A stretch of 64,000 bases of DNA. It comes from Amoebophrya sp. A120 (Eukaryota; Protista; Dinoflagellata). The translations under genes were made by a program, and so were the position numbers. The notes below the pieces were generated by a model. That model was not told the origin of the DNA. It saw nothing but the letters and a program-made list of their open reading frames with translations, and ran no database searches. The stretch covers positions 124,001 to 188,000 of the forward strand of contig CAJINV010000020.1 in NCBI GenBank assembly GCA_905178155.1. The letters are read 5' to 3'. Every line of letters begins with the position of its first letter. Position 1 is the first letter of the stretch. Shown here in pieces: positions 2,662 to 63,312 of this stretch.

Positions 2662-5136
2662 TCATTTCTTTGACTTTGCCGGCGCAGATCTGCCCTTCGC
2701 AGTTTTGGTTTTCGACGGGTTCTTCTTGACGGATTTCGGTTCATTTTTCTTCCCCGCCTTGATCACCTTCGTCGAAGCAGGTGGTTCTTTACCGGAACGA
2801 GATTTATTCTTGGAGTGGGAAATAGCGTTCTTTCCGGTCTTACCCTTTTTTTCCGCCTTTTTGCTTTTGTTTTTGGCTGCTTGAGTCCCGGGCAAAGCAC
2901 TGACCTTCTGTTTCTTCTTCGTAGCCGCGGAGGTACCGGAAGAGCGAGAAGTCGAGCCCGACTTCATCGCGCTTTTCATTTTCATCTTTCCCGCAGCTTT
3001 CTTCTTGTTGACCACGCTGCTCCCCTGGGCCGGCTTTTTGGACTTCTTCATCCCGGCAGTTTTTTTCTTGATCTTGGCCCCACCGCCGCCCTGCGCCGGC
3101 GTTTTGGACTTCTTCATTCCCGCAGCTTTCTTCTTGGCCCCACCGCCGCCCTGCGCCGACGTTTTGGACTTCTTCGTTCCCGCACTTGTCTTCTTGGCCC
3201 CACCGCCGCCGGAGGCATCCGCCATATTGGAGTTGTCTTCTTCCCCATCTGCATCGTTGTTTCCCTTCGACGCTGGCGTGTCCTCCGCGTTTTCCTCGTT
3301 GAAGCAATCGATGTTCTCCAGCAAGTGCGCCGGCCACGAGGACACGAACTCCAACCGCATGGAGGAGGCTTCAGTGAACATGCCGCTCGCGTTTTCTACT
3401 TTCGCGACATTCCACTTGTTCAAATCCTGCGCGAAGGCACTGCAATGCTGGATATGCATTGCAAATATCGATCCGGGTCTGGAAGGATGCGACTTCTGAT
3501 GCTGTCTTTGGATCCTACAAAAAATCTGTGCTGCATGACCAGCAAGAGGAGTCGAGTCTGTGCTACGCGGAGAGGGCATTTTTCATACGGAATTATGGGC
3601 ATCAAGATCCAGAAGCACTCTAAAAGTCTGGCCTTGCACTGCCAGCATGGGCCATGCAAAATGTGCGTGACACACCTCGCGCGCTGGATCGATTGCCCCA
3701 CTAGGGCCTCGCGTTCTGGCTACTCCGGGTCCCAATCGCTGGAGGTCGGGACCTGCACCGGCGACAGGCGCTATCCAACCAACCAACCGACCAACACCTG
3801 GCAATCCTCCAGACCCAGACATATTTGCACTTGATAATGGAACATGCCATACATATTCGTCGCCGCCGCGGTGTTCCAGGACTCCAGCGGGTGGTTGAAA
3901 AATGAGCAGCCATAAAACATGCCCCGAAACTCTGTCGCTCCGGAGACATCCCAACCGCTTATGTCCTGATTGAACGAATGGAAGTGCATGAAAAGGTCCG
4001 CCAGGTTTGTGATTTTCGAGCAGTCCCAAATCCGCAGGGGGCCGTAGATCTCCTCGATTTCTTCCCGGGTCTGGTTCAACTTCGCGAGGATCGTCGGGGT
4101 GTCGTCGTGGGGCAACCCTGGTTGATCCGCATTTTCATAATAGTCACTCGGCGTGTGCCAGTGGTCCGAAGCTCCGTCGTTGTCGTCGTCGTAAATTTGA
4201 AACTCAGGCATTCCAAACCCGGTGCCCAATTCCCCCCCTCCTTCACCGTCTTCGTCCAGGAGTTCCGTATGGTAATCCGCGCTGCAGACGACCATGAGTG
4301 CCTTGTGCAAAGCGCGCTTGTTTTCGAAGGCTGCAAACGTCTTCACGAAGTACGAGACTTTTTCCGCAAGAAACGTCGGACTGCTGATGTCCAGCAAATG
4401 GGCATCGGAGTGTAGGAGGCACTTGCCCGCGGCAGGTTGAACACCAGGAGGAGTCGCTTGGTGGTCTCCTTTATGAATTGCAAACATGACTGGGTCTGCT
4501 CAAGCGCACTGTTTGTGGTCATGCACGTTTCGCATGAGCAATGATCTCTGTGGTGTGTGTTCTAGCATCACAGATTTTCTGAAGGCTTATTGATGCCTGC
4601 CCCGCATGCCAGATGCCCTGTCAGCGTAGCAAGAAATGAAGTTCTGTTGCTGCCCACGCAAAAATACAGATTTTTCTCGCATCCAGAGGCAGCATCGCAA
4701 GTCCGTAATTTTCCAGTGGACCCAGACATTATACTTGCATTTGATATCCTTCGCCGCCACCGTGGCCCTGGTCCGCGGCGGCCTTCGACGGCGACGCCTG
4801 CCCGGCTTGTTCGTCCTGAACCTGACCTGGTGCCTCTTCCTCGTCGACAAACAGTTGCACTTGCTCCCATTGCACCTCCCGCCCCGAGGCGGAAACGTGG
4901 GCTTTCTTCGTCCGAAGCGCGTTCGCGATGAGCTGCTTCACGTCCTTCGCGGTGATGGTGGACGAACCAGCGTTCTTCTTGCAGATCGTCCCTAGGTCGA
5001 TTTCCACCGCGCAGTCGGCTCCGGACAGGGCGCTCGGGATCTTCACGACAAAGACAGGGGTGGAGGCAGCACCACCAGCAGTTTTTTGACCGTCCTCAGA
5101 CACGGGGGCCACTCCGCATTCTTTATTTCGGGGCAT
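2662..5136 (-). CDS. DUF285/BspA-like repeat protein, paralog 1, with putative ubiquitin-like N-terminus and Lys-rich tail; interrupted by 2 TIR elements
   Basis: ORFs 4729-5136, 3771-4487 and 2662-3579 join in frame after removing 4472-4746 and 3453-3836 plus one 5-nt DR each (1806 nt, 602 codons). FNQDISGWDVS / FNHPLESWNT repeats. Confidence 0.8.
3030..3210. repeat. ~60-nt coding tandem repeat (AQGGGGAKKKAAGMKKSKTP-like units)
   Basis: TCTTGGCCCCACCGCCGCC recurs near 3072, 3132 and 3192. Confidence 0.85.
3453..3836. mobile_element. TIR introner family A with ~120-bp nested insert
   Basis: TATGCATTGCAAATATCGATCCGGGTCTGGA...TCCAGACCCAGACATATTTGCACTTGATA; DR CTGGA/ATGGA; removal gives MF(Q/H)HCSAF versus MFEGCSAF in paralog 2. 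Confidence 0.9.
4472..4746. mobile_element. TIR introner family A
   Basis: TATGAATTGCAAACATGACTGGGTC...GACCCAGACATTATACTTGCATTTGATA; perfect DR TCCTT; removal gives GEG|DHQ. Confidence 0.9.
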
Positions 5137-5841: not shown

Positions 5842-8800
5842 TCAAGAAGAGTCTCGCTTTTTCCTTTGTCCAGCACCCTTCCGTCCGGCGTTCGACGTAT
5901 AACCCGCTCAGGTGTTACAATCTCAAACGTTACAATAGAATCTGAGACTTGTCTTGCATGTATGATGAGCATGATCTAGCCAACTCTCATAGGGTTGCGC
6001 ATGACATCAAGTTCCGGAGCTCCAAACCCCACTACAATTTCAATCTGGGGAAATTTGTATTGCAAAAGGTGGAACGCTGTGCGAGTCTGTCATGCCCATC
6101 ATGCAACACAAATTCCAGAATCTATTGCAACGTTTGAGACTGTGACGTTTGAGCAAGTCATACGACGTGCTTTTGCTTTTTCCCCCGGTCTTTTTCGCAG
6201 GCTGCTTGATCTTCCCGTTCCCAGCTGTCTTCGCAGTTTTAGTACCTTGCTTGCCCGTCGCACCAGCAGATCCGACAAGAGCGACCTTCGTTTTTTTCAT
6301 TCCCTTTGATGACATCACACCAGCAGCGGTTTGCTCTTTCTTTGCCACTACGCCCGTCTTCGCGTGCTTGGTTGAACCGGAGCCGCCGGAGCTTTTCTTA
6401 TTCGCAATCTTTTTCATCGTGGTTGCAGTTCGGCTAGATGTAGTAGTGGTAGAGGTTTTCTTCCTGGAGGTTTTCTTGCTGCCCTTCTTCACAACAACCT
6501 TCTTCACCGCGTTGGAGCTGCTGTTCTTCATCGCCGCGCTTTTCATCGCCTTTCCGGCTTTCTTCTTGGCCTTCGCGTCCGCCACGGGCCCACCGTCCTT
6601 CGTGTTCTTCTTTCCCTTGGAGGTGCCCGCTCCTGCAGCGGCCTGCTTCTTGGTCTGCTGCAGATGCTTCGGCAACTTTTCCCGCAGGTGCAGCGGCCAG
6701 GACGCGACGAACTCCGGACGCATAGAGGAGGCATCAGTGAACATTTCGCTCGCGTCTTTTATTCTCGCGACATTCCACTTGTTCAAATCCTGCGCAAATG
6801 CACTGCAACCTTCGAACATGCCAGACATAGTTGTCGCCTTCGCGGTATTCCAGGACTCCAGCGGTTGGTTGAAAAGTTGGCAAGTGTAAAATATGTGCGA
6901 AAAGTCTGTCGCTCCGGAGACATCCCAACCGCTTATGTCCTGATTGAACGAATGGAAGTGCATGAAAAGGAACGCCAGGTCTGCGATTTTCGAGCAGTCC
7001 CAAATCCGCAGGGGGCCGTAGATCTGCTCGATTTCTTCCCGGGTCTGGTTCAACTTCGCGAGCACCTTCGGGGTGTCGTCGTTGTCCGCATTTTCATAAT
7101 AGTCACTCGGCGTGTGCCAGCCTTCGGAAGCTCCGCCGTCCGGATTCGAAATGTGAAACTCACCCATTCCGAACCCGGTGCCCCACTCACTCGTATGTAA
7201 CGCACCGCTGCCGCACGGGCTAAGGAGTTCCGTGTGGTAATCCTCGCTGCAGACGACCATGAGTGCCTTGTGCAAGGCGCGCTTGTTTTCGAAGGGTTCA
7301 AACGTCTTCACGGAGTACGAGAGCTTTTCCGCAAGAAACTTCGAACTGCTGTCCAGCAAATGCGCATCGGAGTGTACAAGGCACTTACCCGCGGCGGGTT
7401 GGACGCCAGGAGGAGTCGCTTGGTGGTCTCCTTTATGAATTGCAAATATGACTGGGTTTGCTTAAGCGCACTGTTTGTCTTTGTGGTCATGCACGACATT
7501 TCGCATGAGCAATGATCTTTGTGGTGTGTGCTCTAGCATCACAGGTTTTCTGAAGGCTTATTGATGCTTGCCCCGCATGCCAGATGCCCCGTCAGCGTAG
7601 CAAGAAATGAAGTTCTGTTGCTGCCCACGCAATACAGATTTTTCTCGCATCCAGAGGCAGCATCACAAGATGGTAATGTTTCAGACCAGGACATTATATT
7701 TGCATTTGATATCCTTGTTCGTTCTGAACCTGACCTGCCTCCTTCTCGTCGACAAACAGTTGCACTTGCTCCCATTGCACCTCCCGCCCCGAGGCGGAAA
7801 CGTGGGCTTTCTGCGCCCGAAACGCGTTCGCGATGAGCTGCTGCACGTCCTTCACCGTAATGGTGGGCGAGCCAGCGGTGTTGCAGATCGTCCGTAGGTC
7901 GATTTCAACCGCGCACTCCGGTCCGGACAGGGCGCTCGGGATCTTCACGGAGGTTTTCTTGTTGCTCTTCTCTAACACAGCAACCTTTTTCATCGCGTTG
8001 GAGCCGCTGCAGCTCGCCGCTGCGCTTTTCATCGCCTTTCCGGCTTTCTTCTCCGCGTGCGCGCTCCCGCCCGTCACCGGCGCGTCGGCTTCGCTGTCCT
8101 TCGTGTTTTTTTTCCCCTTGGCGTCCGCTCCTGCAGCGGCTTCCTCCGCAGCCTGCTGCAGGTGCTTTGGCAACTTTTTCTGCAGGCGCAGTGGCCAGGA
8201 AGCGACGAACTCCGGACGCATACTCTTGCAGGCGTCGTCGAAAACTTTTCCGCTATCATGAAACGCCGTACCACTCGCCTTCACCTTGGACAAGTCCCAC
8301 GAGTTCAGGTCCTGCGCGAAGGCGTTGCACTTGCGGAGCATCCACTGCATATCTGTTACATTCCTGGTGTCCCACGAGCCCAGCGGCTGGTTGAAGACGG
8401 TGCACCCGACGAACATGCAGAACATGCTTGTCACGTTCCTGGTGTCCCACGAGCCCAGCGACTGGCTGAAGGCTTCGCACCCCTCGAAGACACCACTCAT
8501 GTCTTTGACTCTCCCCGTGTCCCACGAGCCCAGCGGCTGGTTGAAGGCCTTGCACCAACGGAACATGCCACCCATGTCTTCGACATTCCTGGTGTCCCAC
8601 GAGTCCAGCGGCTGGTTGAAGGCGTAGCACAACTCGAACATATCACGCATGTCTTTGACTTTCCCCGTGTCCCACGAGCCCAACGGCTGGTTGAAGGCGG
8701 CACACCCCGCAAACATTGCGTTCATGTTTACGGCCTTCGACGTGTCCCAGGCATCTACGAGCTGGTTGAATTTAGCACAATTGCTAAACATATCATGGAA

Positions 8801-10490: not shown

Positions 10491-10549
10491 TCTTCTCCGC
10501 ATGCGCCTTCGCGCGCGTTACCGGTGCGTCGGGTTCGCTGTCCTTCGTG

Positions 10550-43560: not shown

Positions 43561-46035
43561 GATGTTTTCGTGTTGCGTGGAAGCATAGTACTTTCACACG
43601 GATGGAGAAAAATGAAAAAGAAAATCGGGAAAAAGGTAAAAACGAGACCACGACCACCGACGTACTTTTATGCAAATTCGGTGGTGCGACAAGACCGACG
43701 GTGAAAAAGCAAGTCGTTGGGGTAACTGCGGCGGAACGGCCGAAAAAATCTCAGACCGCAAAAACGCAAAATTGATTCCTTTCATTCCATGCTGTTCCTT
43801 GGTGACATCAAATGCGTCCATCCCGAACGAAACTGTGGATCTTCTCGTCGAGCCAACACCGAACAAAAGCGAAGAGTGTGATATGGTGAAGCCAACCTCA
43901 GCTGATGGGCCGACGTGGAGCAGATCTCTTTGCAAAAAAAAACAAAAAAGCGAAGGCCGTTTTTTGTTTTTGCCATCAAACAGGCCTGGAGAACAACAAC
44001 CACTCAACGCCAATTGCCGTGCTTCGTGGTCGTGTCCGGAAAACATCACAAGGATGCTTGCTCGCATGATTTCCCGGGCTCTTCAACAAGCAATTGCAAT
44101 GCCCCACCCTCCGAGGTTAGAATACCACGGAAGACTTTCTTCATGTGGATAAGAAATGTTCTCACACGTCATTTCATCTGCCAGCCTGCAGCGCAAAAGG
44201 AGAGAGATCTTGCAGTGCCTCCAGTACACTCGTCTGTCGGTTGCAGCTCAAGGAAGATGCGACAGGTTGAGAGTGAGACACCGGTCCTCCACTTACCTAG
44301 GAAATAAAATTTATCTGCGAGCACGTAAAAGCAGACCAAGGTCACAGTTAGCTTTACATTAGTGCCAAATTCTGGTGTCTACTAGTACGTCTACTACGTT
44401 CCCCCGATGGCTTGTAACTAGGAAAATATGAGCTCGCTGAAATTACATGCATGTTCTTTGCGTTTCGGCATCCGTCATAGAAGTGCTGGAGCTACACTGG
44501 CTGGTAGAGAAGAATGACATCTACTTCGGAGCTGTTTTTAAATGGTAGACAGCGAGAAACGAGGAAGCAGGTATGATATTTCGCGACCGAGCTACAGCTA
44601 GCACTTGCTTCCTTGTTATGCTGCATACATCGACATCCCCGTGGTCGTCGTCAGGAACTTCTAAGGTAAAATTTTATCTACTTTGTTTACACCTGGATCT
44701 TTTACATCAATCCAGTTTCGCTGTCCTCTGATAACAGGCAAATGCGGTTATCTTCTTTGTTTCAAAATCGCAAAATGGGGTATAAAAAATGCAGACCTGA
44801 GGCTGCAACCTGGTAGTTCCAAATTTACATAATTGCATCTACTGACGTCGGCTTCTCCTGTCGGGTTTTACTACAGTTGCAGGAGAACTTTTATTTTGAC
44901 GGTCGTGAGGGAGAGGGTGAGGGGTTTGCATATGATACAATTCCAACCTGTAAAAAATGTACTTCTTGCAAAAAAAAAAAAACTTTGGTCTACATTTTGG
45001 GTGTGTAAACCTGAAGCCTGTCTTCAGTGATACCATTAACATCAAGTACATATCACTTTACGGCAGTGTCTTAGTGTCCTAGAACCAACATCACCTCTTC
45101 CATGCTAGCCGGAAAATGGTACCATTGGGCAGCTGTCCAGGAGAAAACAAAGCCCACGTAGTTCTCACCTTCGTGGCAGGCTCTGAGATAGCGAGAGCGT
45201 GTAAACGATCTGAAGCGAGTCACCCAGACGTGCAGGAGCCTACTACTTGAAAAACTTTTTTTGATGCAGTCTATCCATATCTCTTGAAACTAGTACTAAA
45301 CAAAACTATTTGCAGTAATTCTTCTCTCTTTCACATTACGTTCGTAATGGTCTTCGCAACTATCCTTCGCGAAACAATACATCTGACACCACTGCCAGCG
45401 ACTTTCTGCGACACGGCACCAGTCTTCAGTACTGCCCCCTTTTTACCTCACATTTGGAATTTCGCAACGTCAAAATTTGCAACTTCACTCCCAAGACAGA
45501 AACAGTCCAAATTTGTTTTATCGATGTTTGGAGCGAAATAATGGAAACTCAATCCATTGAGTACTCGGTCTCAATCTACTTTTGACTGGCATAATCTAAA
45601 TCTATTCTACTTCACATTAGTGCTGACTGCAGAAACACGAATGCACTATCGACCACTCCGGCACGCCCCCGTTTCGACATCTTCCAGAAGCGGCATTCGG
45701 TTTTGTAATGCACGTCGTTCAATAAATTGAAATTTCATGTGGTGAGTACTTAAGTACATAGTTCATCAGTACATTGATGTCATATTGTAATCCACCTCGT
45801 CCTCGTCCTCTGATGCGTCCCCGGCCTGGTCCACGTGGCTGAGCGGCGTCAGGTCGGGATCAACATCGTGGCTGTCCTCGTTTCTAGCGTTTAATCCCCC
45901 GCCCAGACTATGCGAGATAAAAACTGTGTCTGTGGAGATGCAACAAAAGCAAAAACAGTTACACAACTTGCCATGCCAGACGGCCACAAAGTCCTCTCTT
46001 TTATTTTCATCGCGTACTAGCCACGCATTACAGAT

Positions 46036-49000: not shown

Positions 49001-52000
49001 GGGGGATACGGACCCTTCCTTGACTAGCGAGCTGTTCGAGGGGTACACGCACTGCACGAGCAGTATCCTGTGCAAAAGTATCGCACTCGTAGTAATTGCA
49101 ATCATGCATTACAAATAATTTTCTTAAGGTGAATCCGCATTACAAATTCATTTCTAATGCTGAGGAAATTTGTGATGCATTTATACAAGTACGATACTTT
49201 TGCAATGCATAAGCAGGACGTTGTGACGGTACTTGGGGAACTCCTGCAAAAACGTCTTCCACATCCGCAGCTTCAGCATCACGCCGGCCAGCGCGTCGCA
49301 CCGGTCCAGACCCGCGAAGATGGTCTGGTGCGGGTACTGCTCGCGGAGCGACAGCAGTAATTTCAGGTGCCGGCTCTTTCGCCGCGTGCTGGCCGTCGCG
49401 GGGGTCGGCAGGTGGCGGAACGTCGCCATGGACTGTGACCGTCCCAGCGCGACCGGCCCGGCCGCGCCGCCGGACATCAGCGTCCCGTCGCGCAGCAGGC
49501 TGCCGCCCTGGCTGCAAAGCGAGGACGCGGAGCTGCTGCTGGGCAGCATGGCAATGTACTGGTTGGGCACGGTCACGTGGAAGTTGTTCCCGCGCACGTT
49601 GCCGAGCAGCGTGTTCGCGCGGCGGAGCGGCTCGGGCGAGGCGGTCCCCGAGGACTTGCTCAGGTCGTTCTGCGGCGACAGCGCCTCCGCAACGTCCTCC
49701 TCGGCGATCTTGGGCAGTGTGTGCCCGTTTTCGCTTACGGGGATAGACGACCGCTCACTACTGCGGCTGCAGTGGTCCAGGACGGACGACTTGCGCTCGG
49801 GCAGACCGTATGCATTGGTGCAAAAGTATAATCGCACAACTAGTAAAGTATACGTCGCATCACAAATTTTTCCAAGAAAAGAATTATGCGATTTGTCATG
49901 CTGATTTCCCTTAGTTGATAAAATTTGTCGTGCAAGACGGCGATTAGTACGACGACGTGTACGATATTTTTGCACTGCATAGCCCGCATCGCGGCGAGTC
50001 CTCCAATTCGTACTCTACCGAGGCCCGCGCGGGGGCGGAACTTGTCAATTCGTCTGGGGACAGGGAGTGCGAGTCCGTCGCGCTCCACTCGTCCTCTGCG
50101 AGCGGCGTCTATGCAAGAAAAAGATACTCGTGTAAGTGGTAAGTCTGTAGTGCAGAAAAAGCAATCCAATCACACTTGTCATGCCAGACAGCCAGAAAGT
50201 CCCCTGCTTTTGATATGCGTTAGCGTTTTCACGCACTAGTCATTTTATCTAATATGCAGAGCATCAAATTTGTCATGCTGTCAGCATTCCACGAGTTACA
50301 CGACTACCACAGGTTTTTTTCCGGATAGCGTCTGCTGCACTTGCACCGCCTTTCCGTCCGGTACGCTTTGTTCCTGCTCCTCGTCAGTGCTGCTCCTACT
50401 CGCCGTAATCCGGTCGGAAGTCGCGACAATGCCGGCGGTGTTGGCCGGCGCGATATTAGCCGTAGTTGTACTACTGGTGCCAGCACCAGCTGCCGAGGTA
50501 GACTTAGCGGGTGCGGCCACACCACAAGATGATGTTTTGTTCCCCACAGCACTCGCGACCGTGGTCCCGGCGACCACTCCATCCTCGATCGCAGCTGCGG
50601 ACTTGCTCTCTAGCTTTCGCTTCTCCTCATCTGCCTCCAGAGCCGCTTTCAGATCAACGAGGTTGTTCGCTGCCTGCGCCACCTCGTGCACGTTCACCAT
50701 CACGTGACTCACCTTGATCATCACCTGCCGTCCATGGTAGTCCACCGCCATCTGTCCCGAGGGGAGAAACTGGTAGTCGAGGCCGACGATGCGCTTCACC
50801 GTGACGAAAAATTTCCGCACATACTCGAAAAACTGGAACCTGGGTTAAAGATAGAGGATTCTCAATGGTATATTGAAATTCTCGCCTGCTTCCTGTTCAT
50901 GTTTATGATCACCCACGAGTTATTTCTTGCTGTACTTATCCCCAGCCCCACGCCTAAGCGGTAGAAGTTTGAAAGTTTTCTTCTCGCGTACTACAGTAGC
51001 TCGAGAGCACGACAAAAAGCGGCCAATTACCCGATCAAATCGGCGCACAGCATGGCCCGCAGCAGCTCCTCCCGCACCGCGAGGCAGCGGAAGATGTCGC
51101 TGCTGGGAAAGGGCGTGTGGAGATACAGGCCGATGTTCGCCTTCCGAATCTTGCGCGTCAGGTACTGCGGCAGCAGGAGCAGGTGGTAGTCCTGGATCCA
51201 AAAAAAGTCTGTGTGGTGCGAGGTGCGGATGATGACGTCTGCGAAGCACAAATTGATGCGCTGGTAGGACACCCACAGGTCCTCCAGCGTGCTGTGTGCG
51301 CGGTTCGGCGAGGGACTGCCCCACGTGCCATTCTCCGATGCGCCGCTGTGGTTTAGCCGCACCACCTCGTGCAGGATGGGCCACAGGATCTGCTGGCAAA
51401 AATTCATATAGTTGTCGAATTCCTCGCGCGGAAGAAACACCGGAATGCAGTCGTACTGGAAAAGCAGGTCAGACACCTGATTTTGAATGCATTTTTCATT
51501 TATTCCGTGCGTTAATGTTGTCTGTTCAACTTGCCGAAAGAACTTAAGAGCGATCATGCACAACCATTCCTAACTGTTCGAAACGGCGAGCAAGCGCTTC
51601 ATTCGCCTGCGTGCTGAAGAGTTCTTTTTATTCTGGAAACACCTTTAGCTTGTTGATCGACCAAAGCTACAGCAAGCACCTGTCTTTTCTCGTACTCGGA
51701 CTCGATGTGCACGCCGGGCCAGCCGACGCAGAGCAGCCTGAACCGTGCTTTCTATCAAGTGCAAAAGTGTCTAGGTCTGGAAGAGTGAAACTTGCAATTA
51801 TGCTGTCTACGGATTCTAAAAATATCTGTGTTGCATGAGCAGGAAGAGGAGTCAGTTCCTGGCACGCGGAGAGGGCATTTGTCATGCGTATATTAGCATC
51901 AAGAAGGTCTCAAAAACTCTGTGATGCTAGCACCAGCATAACAGACCTGATGCGTCATGCAAAATGTGCACGACAAGTCCCGACTCTTCCAGACCCAGAT

Positions 52001-54528
52001 ATTTTTACAGTTGATACTTTCCCCGCGCGCACATTTTGGTGCAACGTCGGAATCAGGTTCGCTTTCGACTCCGTCACCGCCCACGTGCCCTCCTTGGTCT
52101 TCGTGACCTTTATCAAATGTAAAAATGTCTGGGTCTGGAAGAATGCAACTTGTAATGCGTATTTCAGAACACAGAAAAGTCTCTCATGCATACGTAGCAA
52201 AAGCTCCCACTTTTTGCCAGCAAAATAGGGGACTTGTCATGCGGATTCGGCATTGCGGAAGGTTCTCGAAACCTGTCATGCTAGAGCTTCCATGCCAGAC
52301 CTTCTGTGTCATGCAAAAACAGCATGACTCTTCCAGACCCAGACATTTTTACAATTGATAACCTTGAGCGGCAGCTGAAACGCGATCACCATCACGGTGT
52401 CGCCCGGTCCGAGGTCCGCGTCGTCGTTTTCCTCCTTCAGTTTTTGCAAGATCGGATCGTCGTTCCAGAGATCGCCCTCGTTCAGGTCAAACCCGTCCTC
52501 GTTCTCGAAATTACCCTCGACCGACGAGAGCCGCCCGTCTTCCGAGTGATTTACGTGGGTATTGCCCCGGTGAATCACCGGCGCGGACCCCGCCGGCTGC
52601 AGGGAACGCAACATGCCGCCCTGGGTAGCAGCTGTGCTGCCATGGTTGTACCTACTTCTGCTGGTGGGGTGAAACTGCTGTGTGGCAGCTGCCCCATAGC
52701 TCTGCTGGTTCAAGCTGTAACTCGACGGCCCTTGTGATCCTGCCGAGGAAAAACCTCCGCCGAACGTTGTTCTGTGCAGCGGCCCAGCTCCGAACGACGT
52801 AGTTCCACCCCGCAGCTTGCTGCTGCTTAGGCTGTGCTGGTTATGCAGTCCTCTTATGCCACTTCTTGCGGTTGAGCTGTTGCCCGCCGCCGTGTGGAGC
52901 CCTGCTAAAGTAGTAGAACTGCCAGTAGACGCAGAAGTCGCGTTTCCGAAGCCAAGAAGCTGCTGTCCTGGCTTGTTGGCATTCATATTTCTTGGCTGCA
53001 TATTATTGTTGCCCGCCTGATTCGTGCGCACTCCCAAAGCACTACTCTTGAGCGGCTTGAGTTGCGTTCGTCCGTTCCCCACGGCCATATGCACCAAGTG
53101 GTATGAGCCGTCGAGCTGATCGAACACCGGCTCGGGGCTGTGGCCCCGGGCTGGGTCGTCGTCTGTCGTTGGCGCGCTGTCGCAGCTGCTCGCCCGCGCT
53201 GCCGCGGTTGTGGCACTCGAGGACGCGGCGCGCGATCGAGGCGGCTCGGTGCTGGCCTCGGAGGTGCGACAGAGCGGGTGGGTTCCTGTTAACTTCGCGT
53301 CCGGCTGCTCTACTGCGGTCAGCAACTTGGAAAAGTTCCGGAACCACCCCTCGTCATCCTCCACCGTCATCTCTTGCCCGCTCGGCCGCAGCGTGTACCG
53401 GTGCGCATCCAGCCACCTCACCCGAGTCACTTTCATTTCCGAGTCATCGCTGTTGTTCTCAGGAACACGGTCTTGAAGATGTTGAAACGTGCTGCTTGTA
53501 CTAGCTGCTGCTGCGCTCGATGTAGTGGCACGACCAGCTTCACCACACATCACTCTCCGACTCGCGTCTGTCGTAGACGAAATACCGCTGCCACCGCTGT
53601 TCCCATCCTGCCGCGTCTGCTCTTCACGAAGACCGTTGACAGCCTGATTTCCACCCGGCGTGCAGGTTGATCCCGTACTACTCCCCGGGACGAGGTCCTC
53701 ACGGCCGCGCGAGGATCCGAAAAAGGAATTCCACACGGACGCAAGGAAACCCGGGTCGCTGCCCCCGTCCGCTGCAACCGCGTCGGAACCCGGGGAGGCG
53801 GAACAATGCTCGCTTGTTTTGGGCACGGCCTCCTCCACAATGTATTGGTATTCTACCCTGTGGAGCGTGTAGTTTTACTCCAGAATGCAGATGATACCAT
53901 CTTTCCATTATCGCACCCAGGCTAAATGTGCTGGTGGCGTCGTCCAACTGTTGTCCTACTTACATCAGCAACCCATGCAAAGTAATGCAGATGAGTACCA
54001 GGTATACTTCAATATTGTCGTGCCACCAGCCCCTATCGATCAACAGCAGAATAACGAGAAACGAAGGCAGAGCAAGTGCTAACGATGAATTTGAATACAC
54101 TCGAAGCGCACCACAAGCTGAGAAGACAGAAACAAATACGTTTCGCCCAGCGGCAAATGCACGGGATCGTTGCTGATCCAGCACGGGAAATAGTTTGGGT
54201 TGGTGTGGAGCTCGAGTGCGAGGTCCGGGTCCCACGATCCCAACTGCGGCGTGGACCCGACCAGCTTCACGCGCACGTTTTGGCTCTCTTCGTACTTGAA
54301 GCGGAAAAAGCATCTTGTGGTTGGCAACCGCGAGGAAGAGCTGCTGGTCTGCGGGATTGCAGCACCCCCAGAAGCTGTCGGTGACGCCTGGGCGGTCGGC
54401 GTCGTCGCGGCAGTTCCCGGGGCGGTCCCGAATGCCAACGCAGTGTAGGAACTCTGGCCGCCCGGTGTAGTGGCAGTCTCATCCGCCGACCCAACCGGAG
54501 AGGGCTGCTGCTGCACAACCACCTGCAT
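46036..54528 (-). CDS. CBM20-containing trehalose-6-phosphate synthase/phosphatase (GT20 + HAD phosphatase)
   Basis: CBM20 (KLVGSTPQLGSWDP); CVGWPG, FWIQDYHLLLLP, LYLHTPFPSS, RDGLNL, ILSEFTG, FFDNEGTL, CIGDDRSDEDMF, TVGQKPSKAKY; 8 TIR elements plus conventional introns; ends approximate. Confidence 0.9.
47724..48004. mobile_element. TIR introner family H (degenerate)
   Basis: TATCATCTGAGAAAAACTGCC...GCAGTTTTTCCACGTTCATA; DR 3/5; frame restored. Confidence 0.7.
48433..48708. mobile_element. TIR introner family A
   Basis: DR CGTTC; removal gives ALYRN|ANVLLDTQVRDGLNL. Confidence 0.9.
48834..49008. mobile_element. TIR introner family G
   Basis: TATCAAATGGAAAAAAGCAGGCAGG...CCTGCCTGCTTTTTTCTGGGGGATA; DR CGGAC. 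Confidence 0.85.
49064..49211. mobile_element. TIR introner family F
   Basis: TATCCTGTGCAAAAGTATCGCAC...GTACGATACTTTTGCAATGCATA; DR AGCAG; removal gives NVLL|VQCVYP. Confidence 0.85.
49809..49981. mobile_element. TIR introner family F
   Basis: TATGCATTGGTGCAAAAGTATAATCGCAC...GTACGATATTTTTGCACTGCATA; DR GACCG/GCCCG. Confidence 0.85.
50110..50327. mobile_element. TIR introner family E
   Basis: TATGCAAGAAAAAG...CACAGGTTTTTTTCCGGATA; DR GCGTC. Confidence 0.8.
51753..52016. mobile_element. TIR introner family A
   Basis: DR CTTTC; removal gives AGK|ARFRLLCVGWPG; interior homologous to 3453-3836. Confidence 0.9.
52111..52360. mobile_element. TIR introner family A
   Basis: Family A TIRs; DR ACCTT (AAGGT on the sense strand). 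Confidence 0.95.
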
Positions 54529-55403: not shown

Positions 55404-58400
55404 TCACTCCGTTCCGCTGACGAGGCAGCCCATGTTTTTTGCGACGGTGAGGACGGAATTCCAGTGCGGGTCTTCGGCCAGCAGGTTGGAAAACGCGCCA
55501 ATTACCACCATGCCGTCCTGCGCGCGGCTCAGCGCCACGTTCAACCGCTTTTCGTCCCGGAGAAACCCGATGGCCGCCGTGCGCACGCAAGAGATGATGA
55601 TCACGCGCTTCTCGCTGCCCTGAAAGTACTCTGCGGTACCCACTTCAATGTCGCCGAGGTACACCTCCCCGCTCTCGGAGAGGTTCATCAACTTCTGCTG
55701 GATCCACTTCACCTACGGTATGGAAGAAAAATTGGAAAAAACTGCTTCACCGTGTGCAATTAAGTAGGTTCAAAAGCAGGGGATTCAAAAACGGAAATTT
55801 CGAATGAGTCAAAGACTGCTTTTTAGTCTGCTTCGCCGATTATGGTGCAAAAAAGGACACTCACACTTCATGTTTCATGCTTATTCTGCTCCAGCAAAGA
55901 GCTCGCGTCGCATATTTTTACACGTACTTATGCCGGACTCGTCACATGGACCGCCGTGGTGCAAAATTTTCGTCACAGTGAAGCCGGGCGTTTTTCATAC
56001 GATATGAGCGTCGTAGAACGTGATCACACCAATATCATGAGGAAAAATGCCCCCTCCCCATATCGAAACGAAGTGTCTGATGCTGGATTTCCATACACAA
56101 ATCAGCTTTGTCTTGCAGTGGAGGAATGCAGGCATATGGCAAGCCTCAGCCGAGAGGTTTTGACGTAGGCGCCTAGCATGACAAACGTGCATGCTCTGAG
56201 CCAAACAGCATCACAAACCGCCTGAAAAATGCGAAACGCTTTCTGGACTTGCCTTCTTGCAAGACAGACAGGATTTGAGGTCACAAATGCGCATCACAAA
56301 TTTTCAGACGGATACGTTTTCGATATGGGGAGGGGGGATTTTTCCTTTTGATAACCAATGTCCTTGGTGCGGACATGCTGCGTTACCTCGTGGAGAACGT
56401 ATGAAACCAAAAATTTGGATTTGTAGAATGCAGTTCATCGTGCCATCGCTTCGCCGGCCTTCTTACGTCATGCACAGGAAAATTTTCCTCGTTCCTTGTA
56501 AAAGTTTTGCTCCACAGGGTCAAGTCGAATTACCTTATCTATGTATTCCAGAACAAAAAGCGCAAACCAGAAGCGGCAAACCAGAAGTAGCGGCAAAAAT
56601 GACAGTCACTGCAATCACGAACCCCCAAAGAACTCCCTCTGCGTACGATGTACTCGCAAACCAGGTGCGCCTCCAGCTGGTTGATGTAGCTCTGCTGTAC
56701 TTTTTCCTCCTTATGGCTCTGCTCCTCCCCGCCCAGGTCATGGAATAGTGCGGGCTGGCCGGTGGCGCGAAACCGCACGACGGTCTTCTCTCGGTCGGAC
56801 ATGGGTTTCAGCAGATTGCCGTAAAACACGTTCCACAGCCGGGTCAAGTCCGGGTGCGACCGGAAGGTCTTCGTCAGGAAGTAGATCTTTTCGTTCACCT
56901 GCGCCGGGGGGCCACCGCGAGCTGCAGATGAAACACTCGCGTTCAGCCGCAGCAGTTCCCGGCGGCGATGTTCCGCGCGGATACGCTCGGAGGCCAGGCG
57001 CTCCAGCATGCTGATGTTCAGCTGCAGCTGCTCGGCCTGCTGCTCTATCAAATGCAAATATGTCTGGGTCTGGAAACTTGTAATGCTGAGTGACGTAGTA
57101 AGTATGTCGTAGAGGCCACAGATGATAGCTCAGCATGACAAGCTTCTGAGCTTCTAAGTGTTGCCCATTCTGCGTGACAACCTGCGCTTCTGCATCACAG
57201 AAAAATAAGGCTTTTGGGTAACGTGCATGACAGACTTAAGGGTCTTGCTAGCCTAGCATGACAAACCTTGCACTTTTCCAGACCCAGACATATTTGCGCT
57301 GGATATGCTCCAGCACCGTCGGCCGCAGCTGCTTGTGGTCCCCGCACAGCACCACCCGGGCCCGGCGGGGGTTCAGCGCCAGCGGCACGTAGGCGTCGGG
57401 CTCCGTGCACTGCCCGGCCTCGTCCACGATGACCAGGTCGGGCACGAACACCACCGGGTTGATGGCCTTTTTTGCCGCCGAGTCGAAGAACGTGGGAAGG
57501 TTTCCCGCGGCGGTCGCCGTGGTCACCAGGACCCGGTGCGTGCTTTTGATGTCGTAACTGTCGCACGTGCTGTACTGGAGCATCATGCTGTGCTATCGAA
57601 AGAAAAAAGTTCGCCATAGTCAACTCAAGAAGCTGCAGGATTTGCATCACAAATTCTTCTACGCATCACAGCTTTTGCTTGTCTTGCACAACCACAAGGG
57701 AACCCCCGTATGACTACATTCGACTGTGATGCATGGCTAGTACGCATGACAGACAATTTTGTATTGCAACAGTGCGCATTGGTGATCGTGACGAACTTTT
57801 TCCTTTTGAATATGTGCCGCACGCACTCCTCCTTCTGCGCGAGCTCGTCCTCGCTCGGGTTTGCAGGGTCCAGCATGTCCGGTATCTCCGGAAAGTGGGT
57901 CTCCAGGTAGTGCTGGCGGGCGCGCGAGTTGACGCGGATCAGGTCCTTGGTCTGCAGACCGATCTTCTTCGCCAGTCCGACCAGCAGCAGGTCCGCGGCC
58001 TTGTTGGAGGGCGCGCACACCATCACCTTCACGTCGGGTAGGTGCTTCAGCACCTTCCACAGCGCGCACAGCAGCGTGAACGACTTGCCCGTCCCCGGCG
58101 GACCCCAGACCAGCATGGGGTTGCCGAAGCTGCAGTCCTCGGACAGGACACCCTGCACCACCTCCAGCTGCTCCGGATTCAGGCACGCGCGCAGGTTGTC
58201 GCAGATCGCGTCGCGGCACTGCTGCAGGGTCAGCGCGATTTTCCGGCTCACCTGCAGCTGCTCGTACTTCTCCAAATCTGTCAGCTCGGGTGGTTGGCTA
58301 GGGGTCGTCGTGTCCTCCTCAGTCATCTCGGGGTTCTTGCCCTGGCTGTCCGTGTTTTCATGCTCATCTGCAGGGTCAAAAGCGTCGGCGTTCGCGCCTC

Positions 58401-60550
58401 GCTCACCTACACTCCGCGGCGTTCCCTCCAGTAGAGATCCGGATGAAGACCGCTGGTGTACCTCTTCTTCCTCCGTCGCACCAGTACTACTCGCACCACG
58501 TCGACTGGAACCATCATTGTGAAGGAGCTGCTCTTTCTTCGACGCATCCGCTTTGCGCGACGAGGAACCTTTCTGGTGCCAGTCCTCGGGCGCGCAGTCT
58601 ATGGCGATGTGCCGCTTGCGCCACTGGCCGCGGGGCACGACGAAATCGACCAGCACATCCTTCCGCCCGCGCAAGTGGTGGCAGTCCCCCACCCCCTCCA
58701 GCCACAGCGTGACGGTGCCCGCGGGTTTTTCGTTTTCCACCGCATCGAGTAAAACGGCGCCGGTGGGCGTCAGATTGCGCGGCACCCGGACCGGCACGTT
58801 GCCCTCCATGTCGCTCAACTTCTGGATGGCCAGTTGCTCCCGCACCGCGGCGTCCGCGAGGGACGTCAGACTGCTGGGCCCGAAGGACGTGGCCCCAGCT
58901 CCGGCGGCTTGCTCAGCGTCATCGGTACCGCTTTGCGACGTCAAGGAATCTTCATCTGTAGTAGAAGAAGCTGTGCCTTCATCTTCTGTGCTAGGGGGTA
59001 GTCGCGCTGCACTAGACTCCTGTAATTGCTCCGCGCGTCTTCGCGTCGCCACGGTCGTGGACTCTAGCGTGCGGACGAAGTCGCGCCATTCCGGCGTTTG
59101 GCTCCACACCCGCACTATGCAAGAAAAAAACTGTGTAAGTGTAACTCTGTAATGCAGAACATGCCAGAGAGTTACGCCTCTCATGCCAGACACGCACAAA
59201 GTCCTCTTTCCATGTGTGTTTTCCCTTACCAGCCACGCATGACAGGTTTTCTCTACCATGTAGAGCAAATCTGTGATGCTGTTAGCCAAAGAAAGTTACA
59301 CTAACACAGTTTTTTTCTTGGATACGCACCTGGATCTTCTCGATCTCGCCCCGCTTGCCCTCCTTCACGTCCTGCGCCCGCGCGTGGCCGCTGGAGGTGA
59401 CTTTCCCGCCGAAATTCCGCGCGTCCAGTGCGCGCGGCTCGCGCAGCCGGCTCTGCGCCACGATCTTGCCCAGCACCGACGGCGCGACCGCCACCGCCTG
59501 CCCGCCGCGCACCTGCTTGTCGCCGTCCTCCGTGTTTTTAGCGTCGGTCGTCTCCAGCCGCCCGGCCTCCTCCTGGACGTGCTGCAACAGCCGCTTTTCC
59601 ACGTCGGACACGTACCCGGCCCGCGCATCGAGTGCAAAAATGTCTTTGCGTCTGGAAACGTGCGACCTTGTGAGGCGTTTTGCTGAAGATCATGATCAGA
59701 TTCACTTTCACACAAGAAACATCTGCCTTCCATCGGTTGCAAAAGATGCCCGATTCTGGCCATCCTGAGCAAGGACTTCTCGTGCAGAATTCTAGGACTT
59801 GCCAACGGACTGGAGACCTCCCTGATGTAACGACTCTAAAACCCTGCAACACGACCCCAAACCGCTCTGCGTGGGGTGGCAGTGTGTCAATGTGATGAAA
59901 GAACTGCATGACAAACAACTTCGGCGGACGATGTTCCATACCCAGACACTTTTTTCCACTGAATACAGCCGCACCTTGAGCGAATTCGTCTCGGCGTCCA
60001 CGTGGATCACGCGCGCCCGCATGGTGTTCAGCCTCTCGTCGATCGTCTTCTGCTGCGCACTTTCGTCCACCCAGATCGCCTCGTGCCACCGCCGCTTCAC
60101 CATCTCGCGCCACCGCAGCGTCCCCCGAGCCTCCCGCAACCGCACCTGGTGTGCCGAGGGACCCAGGTGCAGGTACTCCAGCGGAAGCAGGTACTTGTTC
60201 TGCGCAATCCCCGCGAGGGGCTGGTGCGAATCTTTTTCTTTCGTAACTTCTGGACCGGCGTCCCTGTCTTGATTCTGGTGTGGGCTCCTGCGAAGGTACA
60301 ATTCATGACTACTAGTTGTAGTAGAGCCCGTGCTGGTCGTGTCAGTTGAACGAGAGGAAGACGAAGGTGAGTTCCCAGTGTACGTCGGTGTCGGGGCACT
60401 TTTCGTAGCTGCGGTGGTCGGCCCCGTCGTGGTGCGCAGGTATGCCGCAGTCGACGGCGCGGTACCAGCATGTGGCTGCGGGTATCTGCTCAGCTTTGGT
60501 GCCGCCGCGCTACTAGAGGACGAGAAGAAACACGAGCGACAACGCTTCAT
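55404..60550 (-). CDS. Superfamily 1 RNA helicase, Upf1/MOV10-like
   Basis: VWGPPGTGKS, VCAPSNKAAD, IVDEAGQ, LCGDHKQL, FRSHP, IGVITFY, GTAEYFQGSEK, RLNVALSRA; in frame after removing 7 insertions (~1078 codons). Confidence 0.88.
55714..56004. mobile_element. Atypical TA-bounded TIR insertion without a usable 5-nt DR
   Basis: TACGGTATG...CATACGATA ends plus a GCTTCAC(C/T)GTG inverted match; exact removal gives YDAQVKW. Confidence 0.6.
56033..56353. mobile_element. TIR introner family I
   Basis: TATCATGAGGAAAAATGCCCCCTCCCCATATCGAAA...TTTCGATATGGGGAGGGGGGATTTTTCCTTTTGATA; DR ACCAA; removal gives KDIG|VITFY. Confidence 0.9.
56400..56645. other. Non-canonical intron, possibly a highly degenerate introner
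   Basis: TA at both ends, weak TIR, only a CGT overlap; removal gives CEYI|VLHE. Confidence 0.5.
57046..57305. mobile_element. TIR introner family A
   Basis: DR TGCTC; removal gives PTVLE|QQAEQ. Confidence 0.9.
57594..57812. mobile_element. TIR introner family J
   Basis: TATCGAAAGAAAAAAGTTCG...CGAACTTTTTCCTTTTGAATA; DR TGTGC. Confidence 0.85.
59116..59324. mobile_element. TIR introner family E
   Basis: TATGCAAGAAAAAAACTGTGTAAGTGTAAC...GTTACACTAACACAGTTTTTTTCTTGGATA; DR CGCAC. Confidence 0.92.
59626..59965. mobile_element. TIR introner family A (degenerate; left end CA instead of TA)
   Basis: CATCGAGTGCAAAAATGTCT...CCCAGACACTTTTTTCCACTGAATA; DR 3/5; removal gives KVRL|AGYVSD. Confidence 0.75.
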
Positions 60551-60870: not shown

Positions 60871-63312
60871 TCAAACAGGATTGCTCAATAGATCGATGTG
60901 TAGATCTACTGCTGGGCGAGCATAAAGGACCATCATAATCGCGTCCAAAAATTCCTTTGCGTTTGTAGACCGTCGACTGAAGGAACTACGAAAGTCTGTT
61001 GAACAAGTGCACTTCGAAAGGTCATCGGGTCTTTCCTGTATCACGTGCTTTCCGCCTGCACAATTCGCGTTCTCGCCGTCCGCAGCCCGAGCACAGGTGC
61101 CTATGCGTTCGCGAAGAAAGAAAGTGATGCGGTCTCGTTCTTCCGCCGCGCGCCGTGAACCACCCGCCTTAGCCGGCATACTTACTTCAGGCCCGCCTCC
61201 TTTTTCGCCTTGGCTGTCGCTCCATTTGTTCGACGAAAAGGTGGTCCTGGCCACCCTGTCTGTCCGCGCCAAACGCCGCCTTTGCGCGGTTCTTTTGGCG
61301 ACCGCTGATTGAGACGGCAGTATTTCCACGTAGTTTCCCCTGATCATCCTCGTCCTCACCGCTGCTCGTACCTCCTTCGGAGCCGAACGATTCTCCGTCC
61401 GAATCTGCTTCCAAGCTGGCTTCGATCATCGCCAGCTGCGCGGCGGTCAGACTGTTCTCATCGTCTTTTATGAGAGTGCAAGAAAACTCGTCCCCCTCAC
61501 TTCCCTATGGATAGGCTATCCATTGTTTGAAATGCGAGAAATGTGGTTTCCGCATGACACTTCTTCCACGCACCGAATAGAGCAGTACTGGTGTTCCCGG
61601 TTCCGCAACTTGTGATGCCAACGGTAAAAGAAGGCCTTGAAGTGGATTTCGATTTGCGATACTTTGCATGACAAGTGAGGGGGAGTCGTGCTCTTTCCTA
61701 TCTTCGTCGTCGAAGTCGATGGCGTTCCCGTCGGCGTCGCAACCGTTGAAGGCGATGAGGTGGGGCAGCGCGGCGAACACCTCCACGCGGCGGTGTTCGT
61801 CGCTTTCGTATCCTATGTAAAAACGTCCCCACCCCATAGTCAAGATGGGGCATTGGCTAGACAAATCCACAAGTTTTGGCTGTCTTGCATGACAGATTTG
61901 GACTCGTAGCGTAGTGCTGTTTGAGCTAGCTCAGCAGCATCACAGACCCTGTATATAATGCTGATTGGAGCATGACAAATTGCAAAACACGATTGGATTT
62001 GGAAAATGCTTCTCATGGGGCTCCGCATGAGAAACAATTTCAGCATGCAGATTTGCAATACAACTATGGCGTGGGGACGTTTTTACATAGGATATTTCGA
62101 ACTCGAGCAGCATGTCGCACTCCAGCACGCGCAACTGCGGGAGTTGCTGAAGGTACGGCGCGATGTCCTGTGCAAAAGAGGTGATATTGACGCAGCGGTC
62201 CACGCTCAGGTGAAATAACCGCGGAAAAGCCTGTTCTTGCGACCCCTCCTGCACCGCCAGAAAATCCAACGTCGTCAAGGGATTGGCAGAAAGGTCAAGA
62301 ACCTGGTGCGCGTCGTGCGGGGTAGGAAAATAAGAATAACGTACGGAAGATGATGTCGAAACTACTTGGATATTGATTTTTTCTTTTTGTAGCAACATTC
62401 TATTATTTCCCGCTCGCGTAGTCTTTCTAGTGGAAGTTATGCTTCCGTCGTAGGATTCCAACTTGCCAGTGCTTTACTTGGAGCAAGAAGCTGTACCAAC
62501 CCGAAACAAAGAGAACAAGATACACAACCCTATCCTGTCATTACCACGAGATTTTCTGCCGCCTCTTCCCAAGCTCGCGGCGGCGCCACTTCCCGTAGAT
62601 GGCAGTTGGTGATGGCCAGAGCACGGAGCTTCGGGCACTTTTTCTTCAGTACGCCCCATTCTGCGAGCGAGTCGTTATGATGGTATGGCACGAGGAATTG
62701 TTGTACCCTATTTCGGCATGATCTACTTCTTCTGTACTCTGATTTAGCTGTTTAAATAAACCAAACGATCGTCCTGGTAATTCAGTGCTAAATCCCTGTG
62801 GTAAGCACCAAATCCAAATGCAGAATGAGTTGTTGCGGACGACACTGATTTTATGCAACCGAGCCAGGTCTTCGTGGTCTTTCGCGGGCAGCAGATTTTC
62901 CCCGTATCCGTACAAACCGTTTCCCCCGCAAATCGACGCTCTCCACGTCCGCAAGCACCGGTGTGTCAGTTCCTTGCTCGAGGCGCAGCAAAGCATGCTC
63001 GCTAAAGAAATACTCGTCAAGAAGCTCGGACAGGGCCCTGGGAAGTTGCTGCTGTAGCATCTTCTCCGGCTGCGCTTCCGGTGCATATGCAGTCCCAGGA
63101 TGAACAGGACGCTGCTGCGCGGCAGTAGTTGCGGCCCGAAGATGTAGATGTTGAACAACCGGATTGTTCATCGGTATTGGCACACCCCTAATATGTTGCG
63201 GCGGCTGCATGTAAGAAGTCCCGGGCGCGAAAGGAGGACGGTGCCCGCTGCTAGAAGATGCCGATGCCTTCCCAAACGGAAATCCACCAGAAACCGCGTT
63301 CTCGCCTCCCAT
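60871..63312 (-). CDS. Leucine-rich-repeat protein with LRRcap-like motif; exon structure and ends uncertain
   Basis: VLDLSANPL, LPQLRVLE, FE|SDEHRRVEVFAALPHLIAFNG; two TIR elements; apparent frameshift near 62920. Confidence 0.55.
61469..61700. mobile_element. TIR introner family D
   Basis: TATGAGAGTGCAAG..TCCCCCTCACTT...AAGTGAGGGGGA..TTCCTA; DR TCTTT/TCTTC; frame restored (DDED|DENSL). Confidence 0.75.
61809..62094. mobile_element. TIR introner family C
   Basis: TATCCTATGTAAAAACGTCCCCAC...GTGGGGACGTTTTTACATAGGATA (perfect 24-nt TIR); DR TTTCG; homologous to 19250-19528. Confidence 0.95.

What the first reader, a model, noticed from the sequence alone, without database searches (positions are those of the whole stretch)
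3448..62099. A system of TA-bounded, 5-nt-DR TIR elements that must be precisely excised from exons without GT-AG signals
Seen: 33 elements of 148-384 bp interrupt ORFs with the layout DR5-TA-TIR...TIR-TA-DR5. Deleting the element plus one DR restores frame and conserved motifs (WFA|HTCYNWG in the MFS gene, ALYRN|ANVLL..RDGLNL in TPS, KDIG|VITFY in the helicase). Sense-strand DRs have no consensus (TTCTC, CGCGC, CTGCT, GCACA, CGAAA...). For almost all of them, no junction position inside the DR gives both GT and AG. Established: introners with inverted and direct repeats and non-canonical ends are described in Amoebophrya, with the splicing mechanism unresolved to my knowledge. Inference: excision is guided by the TIR stem and TA termini rather than by U1/U2-type splice signals.
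Basis: partly seen in the sequence, partly recalled or inferred. Interest (0 to 1): 0.92.

Follow-up and report, generated by a model that had tools for sequence, protein, structure and literature searches.

The report
Hairpin transposon introns with fixed cut
In the marine parasite Amoebophrya A120, small hairpin-ended transposons interrupt genes and are absent from spliced RNA contigs without normal splice signals, an intron class published in 2021; here the cut likely falls at one fixed position beside the hairpin, which would narrow the open question of how they are spliced.

Summary
I found 35 elements of 148-384 nt, 33 with TA at both ends and 26 with an exact 5-nt duplication; GT-AG is possible in 3 of 35. 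The window is Amoebophrya sp. A120 (100% protein matches), and these are the introner elements of Farhat et al. 2021, TAT-N7-AAA ends included, so the system is already known. One RNA-like assembly ends at the predicted junction at 5 of 5 visible element borders, while DNA contigs run through the elements. Empty paralogous sites show the 5 nt are a target duplication. Additions not found in the text I read: family members sit in both orientations, and diverged duplications point to one cut register, 1 nt before the 5' TA and 4 nt after the 3' TA. That rests on three informative sites plus weak support. It keeps U+2/A+3 of a spliceosomal donor, so a relaxed, U1-less spliceosome guided by the hairpin is my best guess; an SOS-like ligase route is the rival. 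The scan noted similar elements in other dinoflagellate genomes, none on this one.

The parts
3453..3836 (-). Introner in a BspA/DUF285 gene; duplication differs at sense position 5 (register k<=4)
   Evidence: A120 protein P0316 has Q; empty paralogous site near 6810
4472..4746 (-). Introner, exact 5-nt duplication; sister copy of 7434 at the same site of a paralogue
   Evidence: P0316 reads across
5898..6162 (-). Introner of a second TIR type (same family as 18956), exact duplication
   Evidence: P0317 reads across
7434..7711 (-). Introner, exact duplication
   Evidence: P0317
11693..11958 (-). Introner, exact duplication; the paralogue at 9210-9280 has the empty site with one copy of the 5-mer
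17159..17410 (-). Introner, exact duplication
18041..18308 (-). Introner, exact duplication
18956..19211 (-). Introner of the second TIR type, exact duplication
19250..19528 (-). Introner (family of 61809), exact duplication
19907..20168 (-). Introner, exact duplication
23741..23908 (-). Older introner, 2 mismatches in the duplication
27658..27910 (-). Introner, exact duplication
28246..28445 (-). Introner (95% like 52111 over 104 nt), exact duplication
30753..31021 (-). Introner, exact duplication
34202..34423 (-). Introner in the MFS-type gene, 1 mismatch (sense position 1)
34636..34896 (-). Introner in the MFS-type gene (WFA|HTCY), exact duplication
35754..36005 (-). Introner in the MFS-type gene; opposite orientation to its relative 57046
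41055..41278 (-). Introner with one altered end, exact duplication
45909..46107 (-). Older introner, 3 mismatches; RNA contig piece ends at 45903 (k>=4, excludes the available GC-AG register)
47724..48004 (-). Introner in TPS/TPP gene, 2 mismatches (positions 2, 5); homologues favour k=2-4
48433..48708 (-). Introner in TPS (ALYRN|ANVLL), exact duplication
48834..49008 (-). Introner in TPS, exact duplication
49064..49211 (-). Shortest introner (148 nt) in TPS, exact duplication
49809..49981 (-). Introner in TPS, 1 silent mismatch (position 4)
50110..50327 (-). Introner in TPS; RNA contig piece starts at 50328
51753..52016 (-). Introner in TPS; removal needed for contig length 605 = 605
52111..52360 (-). 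Introner in TPS; RNA contig piece starts at 52361
55719..56004 (-). Older introner in the helicase gene, 3 mismatches; k<=3 gives a stop codon; RNA piece ends at 55713
56033..56353 (-). Introner in the helicase gene (KDIG|VITFY), exact duplication
57046..57305 (-). Introner in the helicase gene; opposite orientation to 35754
57594..57812 (-). Introner in the helicase gene, exact duplication
59116..59324 (-). Introner in the helicase gene, exact duplication
59626..59965 (-). Older introner with one altered end, 2 mismatches
61469..61700 (-). Introner, 1 mismatch (position 1); RNA piece ends at 61463
61809..62094 (-). Introner with a perfect 22-nt TIR; retention does not fit the contig length

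Best explanation
These are the Amoebophrya A120 introner elements: non-coding TIR elements that sit in exons in either orientation with a 5-bp target duplication and are missing, with one copy of the duplication, from spliced RNA contigs; the cut likely lies 1 nt before the 5' TA and 4 nt after the 3' TA, and is likely made by a relaxed, U1-less spliceosome that uses the predicted terminal hairpin as its ruler. Shown: layout, target duplication, presence in DNA, absence from one RNA-like assembly, both orientations. Inferred from three sites plus weak support: the single register (k=4 of the 5 duplicated bases kept from the first copy), with 1+4 = 5 explaining scarless removal. Inferred only: mobilisation by an unidentified cut-and-paste transposase, the ruler role of the stem, and the catalyst. 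My odds: identity and RNA-level removal about 0.95, fixed k=4 about 0.7, spliceosome as catalyst about 0.5.
For: Organism: TPS exon and BspA exon are 100% identical to A120 proteins. Target duplication: empty paralogous sites for 11693 and 3453; 164 of 222 paired elements in loci L001-L136 have exact 5-nt repeats, and lengths 3, 4, 6, 7, 8 occur 1, 1, 0, 1, 1 times. RNA level: X3 contig pieces stop at 52361, 50328, 61463, 55713 and 45903, each the leftmost junction predicted for element+5 nt. The unseen middle of one contig is 605 nt, equal to the prediction. DNA run X1 spans elements with 0 gaps. Frames: 62 of 66 confident sites in L001-L136 agree with element+5; collinear with the A25 orthologue at 3 of 4 TPS junctions, the fourth in a variable stretch. 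Register: 45909 and 55719 need k>=4 (contig ends; a stop codon for k<=3 at 55719). 3453 needs k<=4 (Q in transcript-based model P0316). 47724 leans to k=2-4 (H or Q in Amoebophrya homologues). All nine 'predominant' A120 motifs of Farhat Table S4 have T second, and the A25 ones start TT with IRs starting TTA. Stem: median z -5.8, 32 of 35 below -2, three GT-AG introns near 0. Orientation 19:13, 10:11, 11:7 in the three largest families. Spliceosome: 83 of 89 proteins found and U1 snRNA undetected in A120/A25, U1 present in an Amoebophrya with canonical introns; precedent in Fritillaria (abstract).
Against: RNA support is one run labelled 'RNA?' and held as contigs, with only piece ends visible; no read-level junction and no intermediate was seen. 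The register rests on three sites and assumes all elements share it; the k<=4 limit comes from one annotated protein. The codon-likelihood test on 13 other sites peaks at k=4 in only 1282 of 2000 bootstraps. Table S4 motifs may reflect aligner choices. Against a spliceosome: no base bias at intron +1 (C31 G27 A33 T20, n=111), any 3' dinucleotide, no strand-asymmetric 5-mer beyond |z| 2.8 among 305 tested, so no branch or pyrimidine signal was found; the donor would lie next to a strong stem. Strand calls in L001-L136 come from a codon model and may hold errors. No autonomous partner among 6 long paired elements (longest ORF 224 aa, in a doubtful pair).
Confidence: 0.5

Rival explanations
1. 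Same elements and register, but removal is non-spliceosomal: a nuclease cuts beside the paired TIRs and a ligase such as RTCB joins the exons, a precise counterpart of SOS splicing.
For: Orientation independence and no strand-specific signal. No terminal base requirement. Strong end-to-end pairing. SOS splicing is triggered by ITR pairing and rarely uses GU-AG (PMC12779559).
Against: SOS splicing is imprecise and leaves indels, whereas these junctions restore conserved motifs without indels. The register keeps N-U-A, and U1 loss goes with these introns. AKAP17A, CAAP1 and RTCB were not looked for in A120.
Confidence: 0.3
2. The cut is not fixed: the machinery picks any usable register inside the duplication, so different elements use different k.
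For: Farhat Fig. 3 legend calls splice sites 'variable' relative to the hairpin. 26 of 35 sites cannot show their register. Only three sites constrain it firmly.
Against: Where near-canonical options exist they are not taken: GC-AG (k=1) at 45909 is excluded by the contig end, and an AG end (k=5) at 3453 is not used in P0316. All informative sites are compatible with k=4.
Confidence: 0.15
3. The elements are excised from DNA in the expressing stage, like ciliate TA-bounded IESs.
For: TA at both ends in 33 of 35.
Against: DNA contigs of X1 run through 45909, 47724, 49809, 50110, 55719, 57594, 59626 and 61469 without gaps at flank-level depth, though contigs drop rare variants. The product keeps the 5-mer and loses both TAs, whereas IES excision leaves one TA (recalled).
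Confidence: 0.03

Closest known systems
Introner elements (IEs) of Amoebophrya sp. A120 (Farhat et al. 2021, PMC7789003; sections 10-12, 16, 25, passages, supplement legends and Table S4 read; figures not seen)
   Same: Same organism, IR starting TAT + 7 loose nt + AAA, DR of 3-5 nt (5 bp in the Fig. S19 legend), about 240 nt, non-canonical ends, RNA-seq supported, hairpin proposed.
   Different: The text leaves the border 'unknown' or 'variable' and does not mention element orientation. Here the duplication is fixed at 5 nt and proven by empty sites, orientation is mixed, and the register is likely k=4. Figs 3 and S19-S23 may already show part of this.
A120 introner families in Gozashti et al. 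2025 (PMC12130899; passages and 19 of 58 A120 rows of Dataset S7 seen)
   Same: Mostly 'TIR DNA', superfamily unknown, many non-canonical ends.
   Different: Automated TSD calls in the rows seen vary from 2 to 5 nt and the mechanism is given as co-opting or carrying splice sites; no fixed register in those rows.
SOS splicing (Zhao et al. 2025, PMC12779559; abstract, part 1 of 4 of the main text, discussion read)
   Same: DNA transposons removed from mRNA, triggered by paired terminal inverted repeats, rarely at GU-AG.
   Different: Imprecise, leaves indels, shown in worm and human cells; Amoebophrya is not mentioned.
Euglena nonconventional introns (Nomura et al. 2025, PMC12501133; abstract, introduction and one passage read)
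   Same: Non-GT-AG introns with paired ends, flanking direct repeats and unequal spacers between stem and cut (3 nt at 5', 5-6 nt at 3').
   Different: Need a CDG..CH'G motif and a purine after the cut; here the ends are TAT..ATA with 1 and 4 nt spacers and a free exon base.
Fritillaria borealis non-canonical introns (passages of review PMC11282704; abstract of bioRxiv 10.1101/2025.08.15.670264)
   Same: MITE-derived TIR introns handled by an altered U2 spliceosome.
   Different: Retain preferred ends (AG-AC, AG-AT); here the ends are free apart from the element's TA.

Membership tests
Amoebophrya A120 introner elements (Farhat 2021) | Occurs in Amoebophrya A120 | tested here: met
   100% identity to A120 proteins P0002 and P0316
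Amoebophrya A120 introner elements (Farhat 2021) | Terminal IR starting TAT, 7 loose nt, then 3 or more A | tested here: met
   Position counts over 172 elements: T, A, T at 1-3 and A at 11-13 in over 93% at both ends; definition
Amoebophrya A120 introner elements (Farhat 2021) | 3-5 nt direct repeat at the exon border | tested here: met
   5 nt exact in 26 of 35 and 164 of 222
Amoebophrya A120 introner elements (Farhat 2021) | Repeated in families | tested here: met
   113 of 172 fall in 12 families
Amoebophrya A120 introner elements (Farhat 2021) | Removed from RNA at non-GT-AG ends | tested here: met
   5 of 5 visible borders in X3 contigs; GT-AG possible in 3 of 35
Non-autonomous TIR DNA transposon (MITE-like) | TIRs, short, non-coding | tested here: met
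Non-autonomous TIR DNA transposon (MITE-like) | Target site duplication shown by an empty site | tested here: met
   Empty paralogous sites for 11693 and 3453
Non-autonomous TIR DNA transposon (MITE-like) | Autonomous partner with the same TIR (gives the superfamily) | tested here: inconclusive
   None among 6 paired elements over 420 nt; no whole genome held
U2-type spliceosomal intron | GT/GC-AG ends | tested here: not met
   (GT-AG possible in 4 of 137)
U2-type spliceosomal intron | Branch point and pyrimidine tract | tested here: inconclusive
   No strand-asymmetric 5-mer in the last 60 nt
U2-type spliceosomal intron | Lariat intermediate, snRNP dependence | not testable with these tools
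   Needs bench work or raw reads of this strain
SOS splicing substrate | Removal depends on ITR pairing | not testable with these tools
   Only consistent: folding, orientation
SOS splicing substrate | Imprecise junctions with indels | tested here: not met
   Junctions seen are exact; minor isoforms would be hidden in contigs
SOS splicing substrate | AKAP17A, CAAP1, RTCB required | not tested
   No A120 proteome to search
Euglena nonconventional intron | N3CDG..CH'G N5-6|R signature | tested here: not met
   Ends are TAT..ATA; signature from the abstract
Ciliate TA-IES (features recalled) | DNA-level excision leaving one TA | tested here: not met
   Elements present in DNA contigs; the product loses both TAs

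The most novel reading that the evidence does not exclude
A120 runs a precise, orientation-blind splicing pathway in which paired transposon ends act as a ruler (1 nt 5', 4 nt 3') matched to the 5-bp target duplication. If a nuclease and ligase do the work rather than the spliceosome, it is a scarless, genome-wide counterpart of SOS splicing serving tens of thousands of introns.
Probability: 0.25. Interest if true: 0.85.

Novelty: already known. Interest (0 to 1): 0.45.

Why it matters
The class is published, but its splicing mechanism is open. A fixed register turns an ambiguous border into a rule (N|TA..TA-NNNN|) that could re-annotate tens of thousands of A120 introns. It would explain why elements with a 5-bp duplication are tolerated in conserved domains, and it separates two testable mechanisms: a relaxed spliceosome against an SOS-like cut-and-ligate route. 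Orientation-blind precise removal would make exonic transposon insertions nearly free for the host.

Tried and rejected
No whole genome is held, so no genome-wide register count or transposase search. Raw RNA runs X9 and X10 covered 2 of 30 bins, only on element sequence at mostly 90-95% likeness, so they say nothing about splicing here. The run search listed no holder on record as RNA; X3 is a guess, which I accept because its contigs also break at GT-AG introns. The joints table was filled by cross-matches between element copies in X1, so only piece ends were usable. Read-level or contig junctions at 47724 and 49809 remain unseen. My first length search missed the natural solution because it ignored a 2-nt shift; corrected. 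The middle exon of contig record 14 has four possible placements. No A120 protein spanning 47724 was found among proteins of 477-2000 aa. At 49809 the mismatch is silent. Among 61 homologues with the motif, the residue at the 47724 junction is variable (H 4, Q 6, D 2), so that site is weak. An AT-bias test for which copy mutated gave no pattern. An element+2 removal (keeping 8 of 10 duplicated bases) also keeps frame but is rejected by contig ends 52361 and 50328 and scores lower at 3 of 4 TPS junctions. I first read 55714-56004 as an element without duplication; the TIR starts at 55719 and the second copy has diverged. Nearby GC-AG at 45909 rejected. Papers: five searches showed no listing that fixes the A120 register or links it to SOS splicing. 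Subscription papers (Roy 2023, Huff 2016, Henriet 2019) were not seen, nor any figures, nor files 13-14 of PMC12130899.
Full report
Observation. A direct scan, a profile scan and an internal-motif scan give a curated set of 35 elements of 148-384 nt, 8,771 nt in all. 99 of 102 internal motif hits fall inside them. 33 of 35 have TA at both ends. The flanking 5-mers are identical in 26 and differ in 9, and no other repeat length is common. A strict version of the layout occurs 23 times against 0-2 in 20 resampled windows. GT-AG can be made at some register in 3 of 35.

Identity. A TPS exon and a BspA exon match Amoebophrya sp. A120 proteins at 100%. Farhat et al. 2021 (PMC7789003) describe A120 introner elements with 8-20 nt inverted repeats that start TAT, have seven loose bases and then three or more A, with direct repeats of 3-5 nt, 29,850 copies and RNA-seq support. 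The Fig. S19 legend shows a 5-bp case. The ends here fit that definition in over 93% of 172 elements. The system is therefore already known. The paper's text leaves the border unknown and the mechanism open. I could not see its figures.

Transposon origin. Two paralogous BspA genes carry empty sites with a single copy of the target, so the 5-mer is an insertion duplication. They hold 222 automatically paired elements, some mispaired: 164 exact 5-nt duplications, 30 with one mismatch, and almost none of other lengths. No autonomous partner was seen among six long pairs.

Removal from RNA. In one search the DNA run X1 runs through eight elements with no gaps. The RNA-like run X3 breaks at GT-AG introns and at every element border shown: 52361, 50328, 61463, 55713 and 45903. 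The tool places ambiguous joints leftmost, which the GT-AG intron at 50840 confirms, and all five ends equal the leftmost junction for element plus 5 nt. The unseen middle of one contig is 605 nt, the predicted value with both inner elements removed. Transcript-based A120 models (method) read across nine elements. Orthologues are collinear across seven, one of them in a variable stretch. Together 19 of 35 elements have such support. In the other assembly 62 of 66 sites with confident frames on both sides agree with element+5 (165 scored). Limits: one run, contigs rather than reads, RNA status a guess; X9 and X10 did not cover exons.

Where the cut lies. Let k be the number of duplicated bases kept from the first (sense) copy. 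At 45909 the contig end allows only k=4 or 5 and excludes an available GC-AG register. At 55719 the contig end says the same, and k<=3 would put a stop in the helicase motif, which a 94%-identical homologue has as YDAQVKW. At 3453 the annotated protein has Q, which needs k<=4 and declines an available AG end. At 47724 Amoebophrya homologues have H or Q, leaning to k=2-4, but the residue varies widely. The only register common to all is k=4: the intron starts N-T-A and ends T-A-N-N-N-N. A codon test on 13 other sites peaks at k=4 weakly (1282 of 2000 bootstraps). All nine predominant A120 motifs in Farhat Table S4 have T second, and A25 introns start TT with repeats starting TTA, which fits but may reflect aligner behaviour.

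What guides it. 32 of 35 elements fold more stably than shuffles (median z -5.8, 25 shuffles each), with the ends paired in most; three GT-AG introns do not. Families occur in both orientations relative to the gene: 19:13, 10:11 and 11:7 in the largest, and 35754 against 57046 within the window. There is no base bias at intron +1 and no strand-specific motif near the 3' end. A symmetric signal, the TIR stem or its TAT, is the simplest guide. This is inference.

Catalyst. I favour a relaxed spliceosome, at about even odds. The register leaves U and A at +2 and +3 as in a normal donor (established knowledge). A120 keeps 83 of 89 spliceosomal proteins but U1 snRNA was not detected, whereas an Amoebophrya with canonical introns has U1. 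Fritillaria gives a precedent (abstract). Against it: no branch signal, free ends and orientation blindness, which recall SOS splicing (PMC12779559). SOS, however, is imprecise and these junctions are not. Euglena introns offer a third analogue with unequal spacers around a paired motif. DNA-level excision is unlikely.

Verdict. Real, correctly described, and already published as a class in this very genome. The modest new content is the fixed 5-bp duplication with empty sites, orientation independence and a likely k=4 register. I found none of these stated in the text I read (searches; figures and subscription papers unseen). Earlier scan notes report similar elements in two other dinoflagellate genomes (untested here) and nothing on this genome. 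Interest 0.45.

Noticed in passing
window 2665-12173: Tandem array of four BspA/DUF285 (PF03382) genes whose listed non-Amoebophrya hits are mostly bacterial or unnamed metagenomic repeat proteins. P0317 maps in pieces across several paralogues and looks like a chimeric gene model.
   Followed up: partly
window 4472-4746 and 7434-7711: The same element (92.5% alike) at the same site in two paralogues, so it inserted before the gene duplication; 3453 and 11693 inserted after it.
   Followed up: partly
all elements, e.g. window 27658-27910: Short internal motifs repeated in both orientations (99 of 102 window hits lie inside elements), shared by unrelated families; possible transposase- or splicing-factor binding sites.
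   Followed up: no
window 5898-6162 and 18956-19211: A second TIR type without the AAA block and with internal tandem repeats, still with TA ends and a 5-nt duplication, and the strongest folds (z about -12).
   Followed up: no
runs X9, X10 on window 48406-49056, 51661-52311, 61426-62076: Raw RNA reads of other samples carry related elements (mostly 90-95% alike) joined to flanks not in this window, with no exon coverage here: the TIR family is transcribed unspliced at some locus in a relative.
   Followed up: no
window 49475 and 45000-49470: The A120 TPS model P0002 stops at 49475, but the frame continues through five more elements into a complete TPP domain collinear with A25 protein P0056: the public model is truncated.
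   Followed up: partly
window 20250-22470: A short piece of coding-like sequence recurs three times in an AT-rich stretch with repeated motifs (seen), perhaps a decayed duplication.
   Followed up: no
L001-L136 and window: Mismatches between the two duplication copies are commonest at sense position 1 (10 of 30; 5 of 16); unexplained, small numbers.
   Followed up: no
whole window: Every gene I translated lies on the minus strand, in line with the co-oriented blocks reported for Amoebophrya.
   Followed up: no
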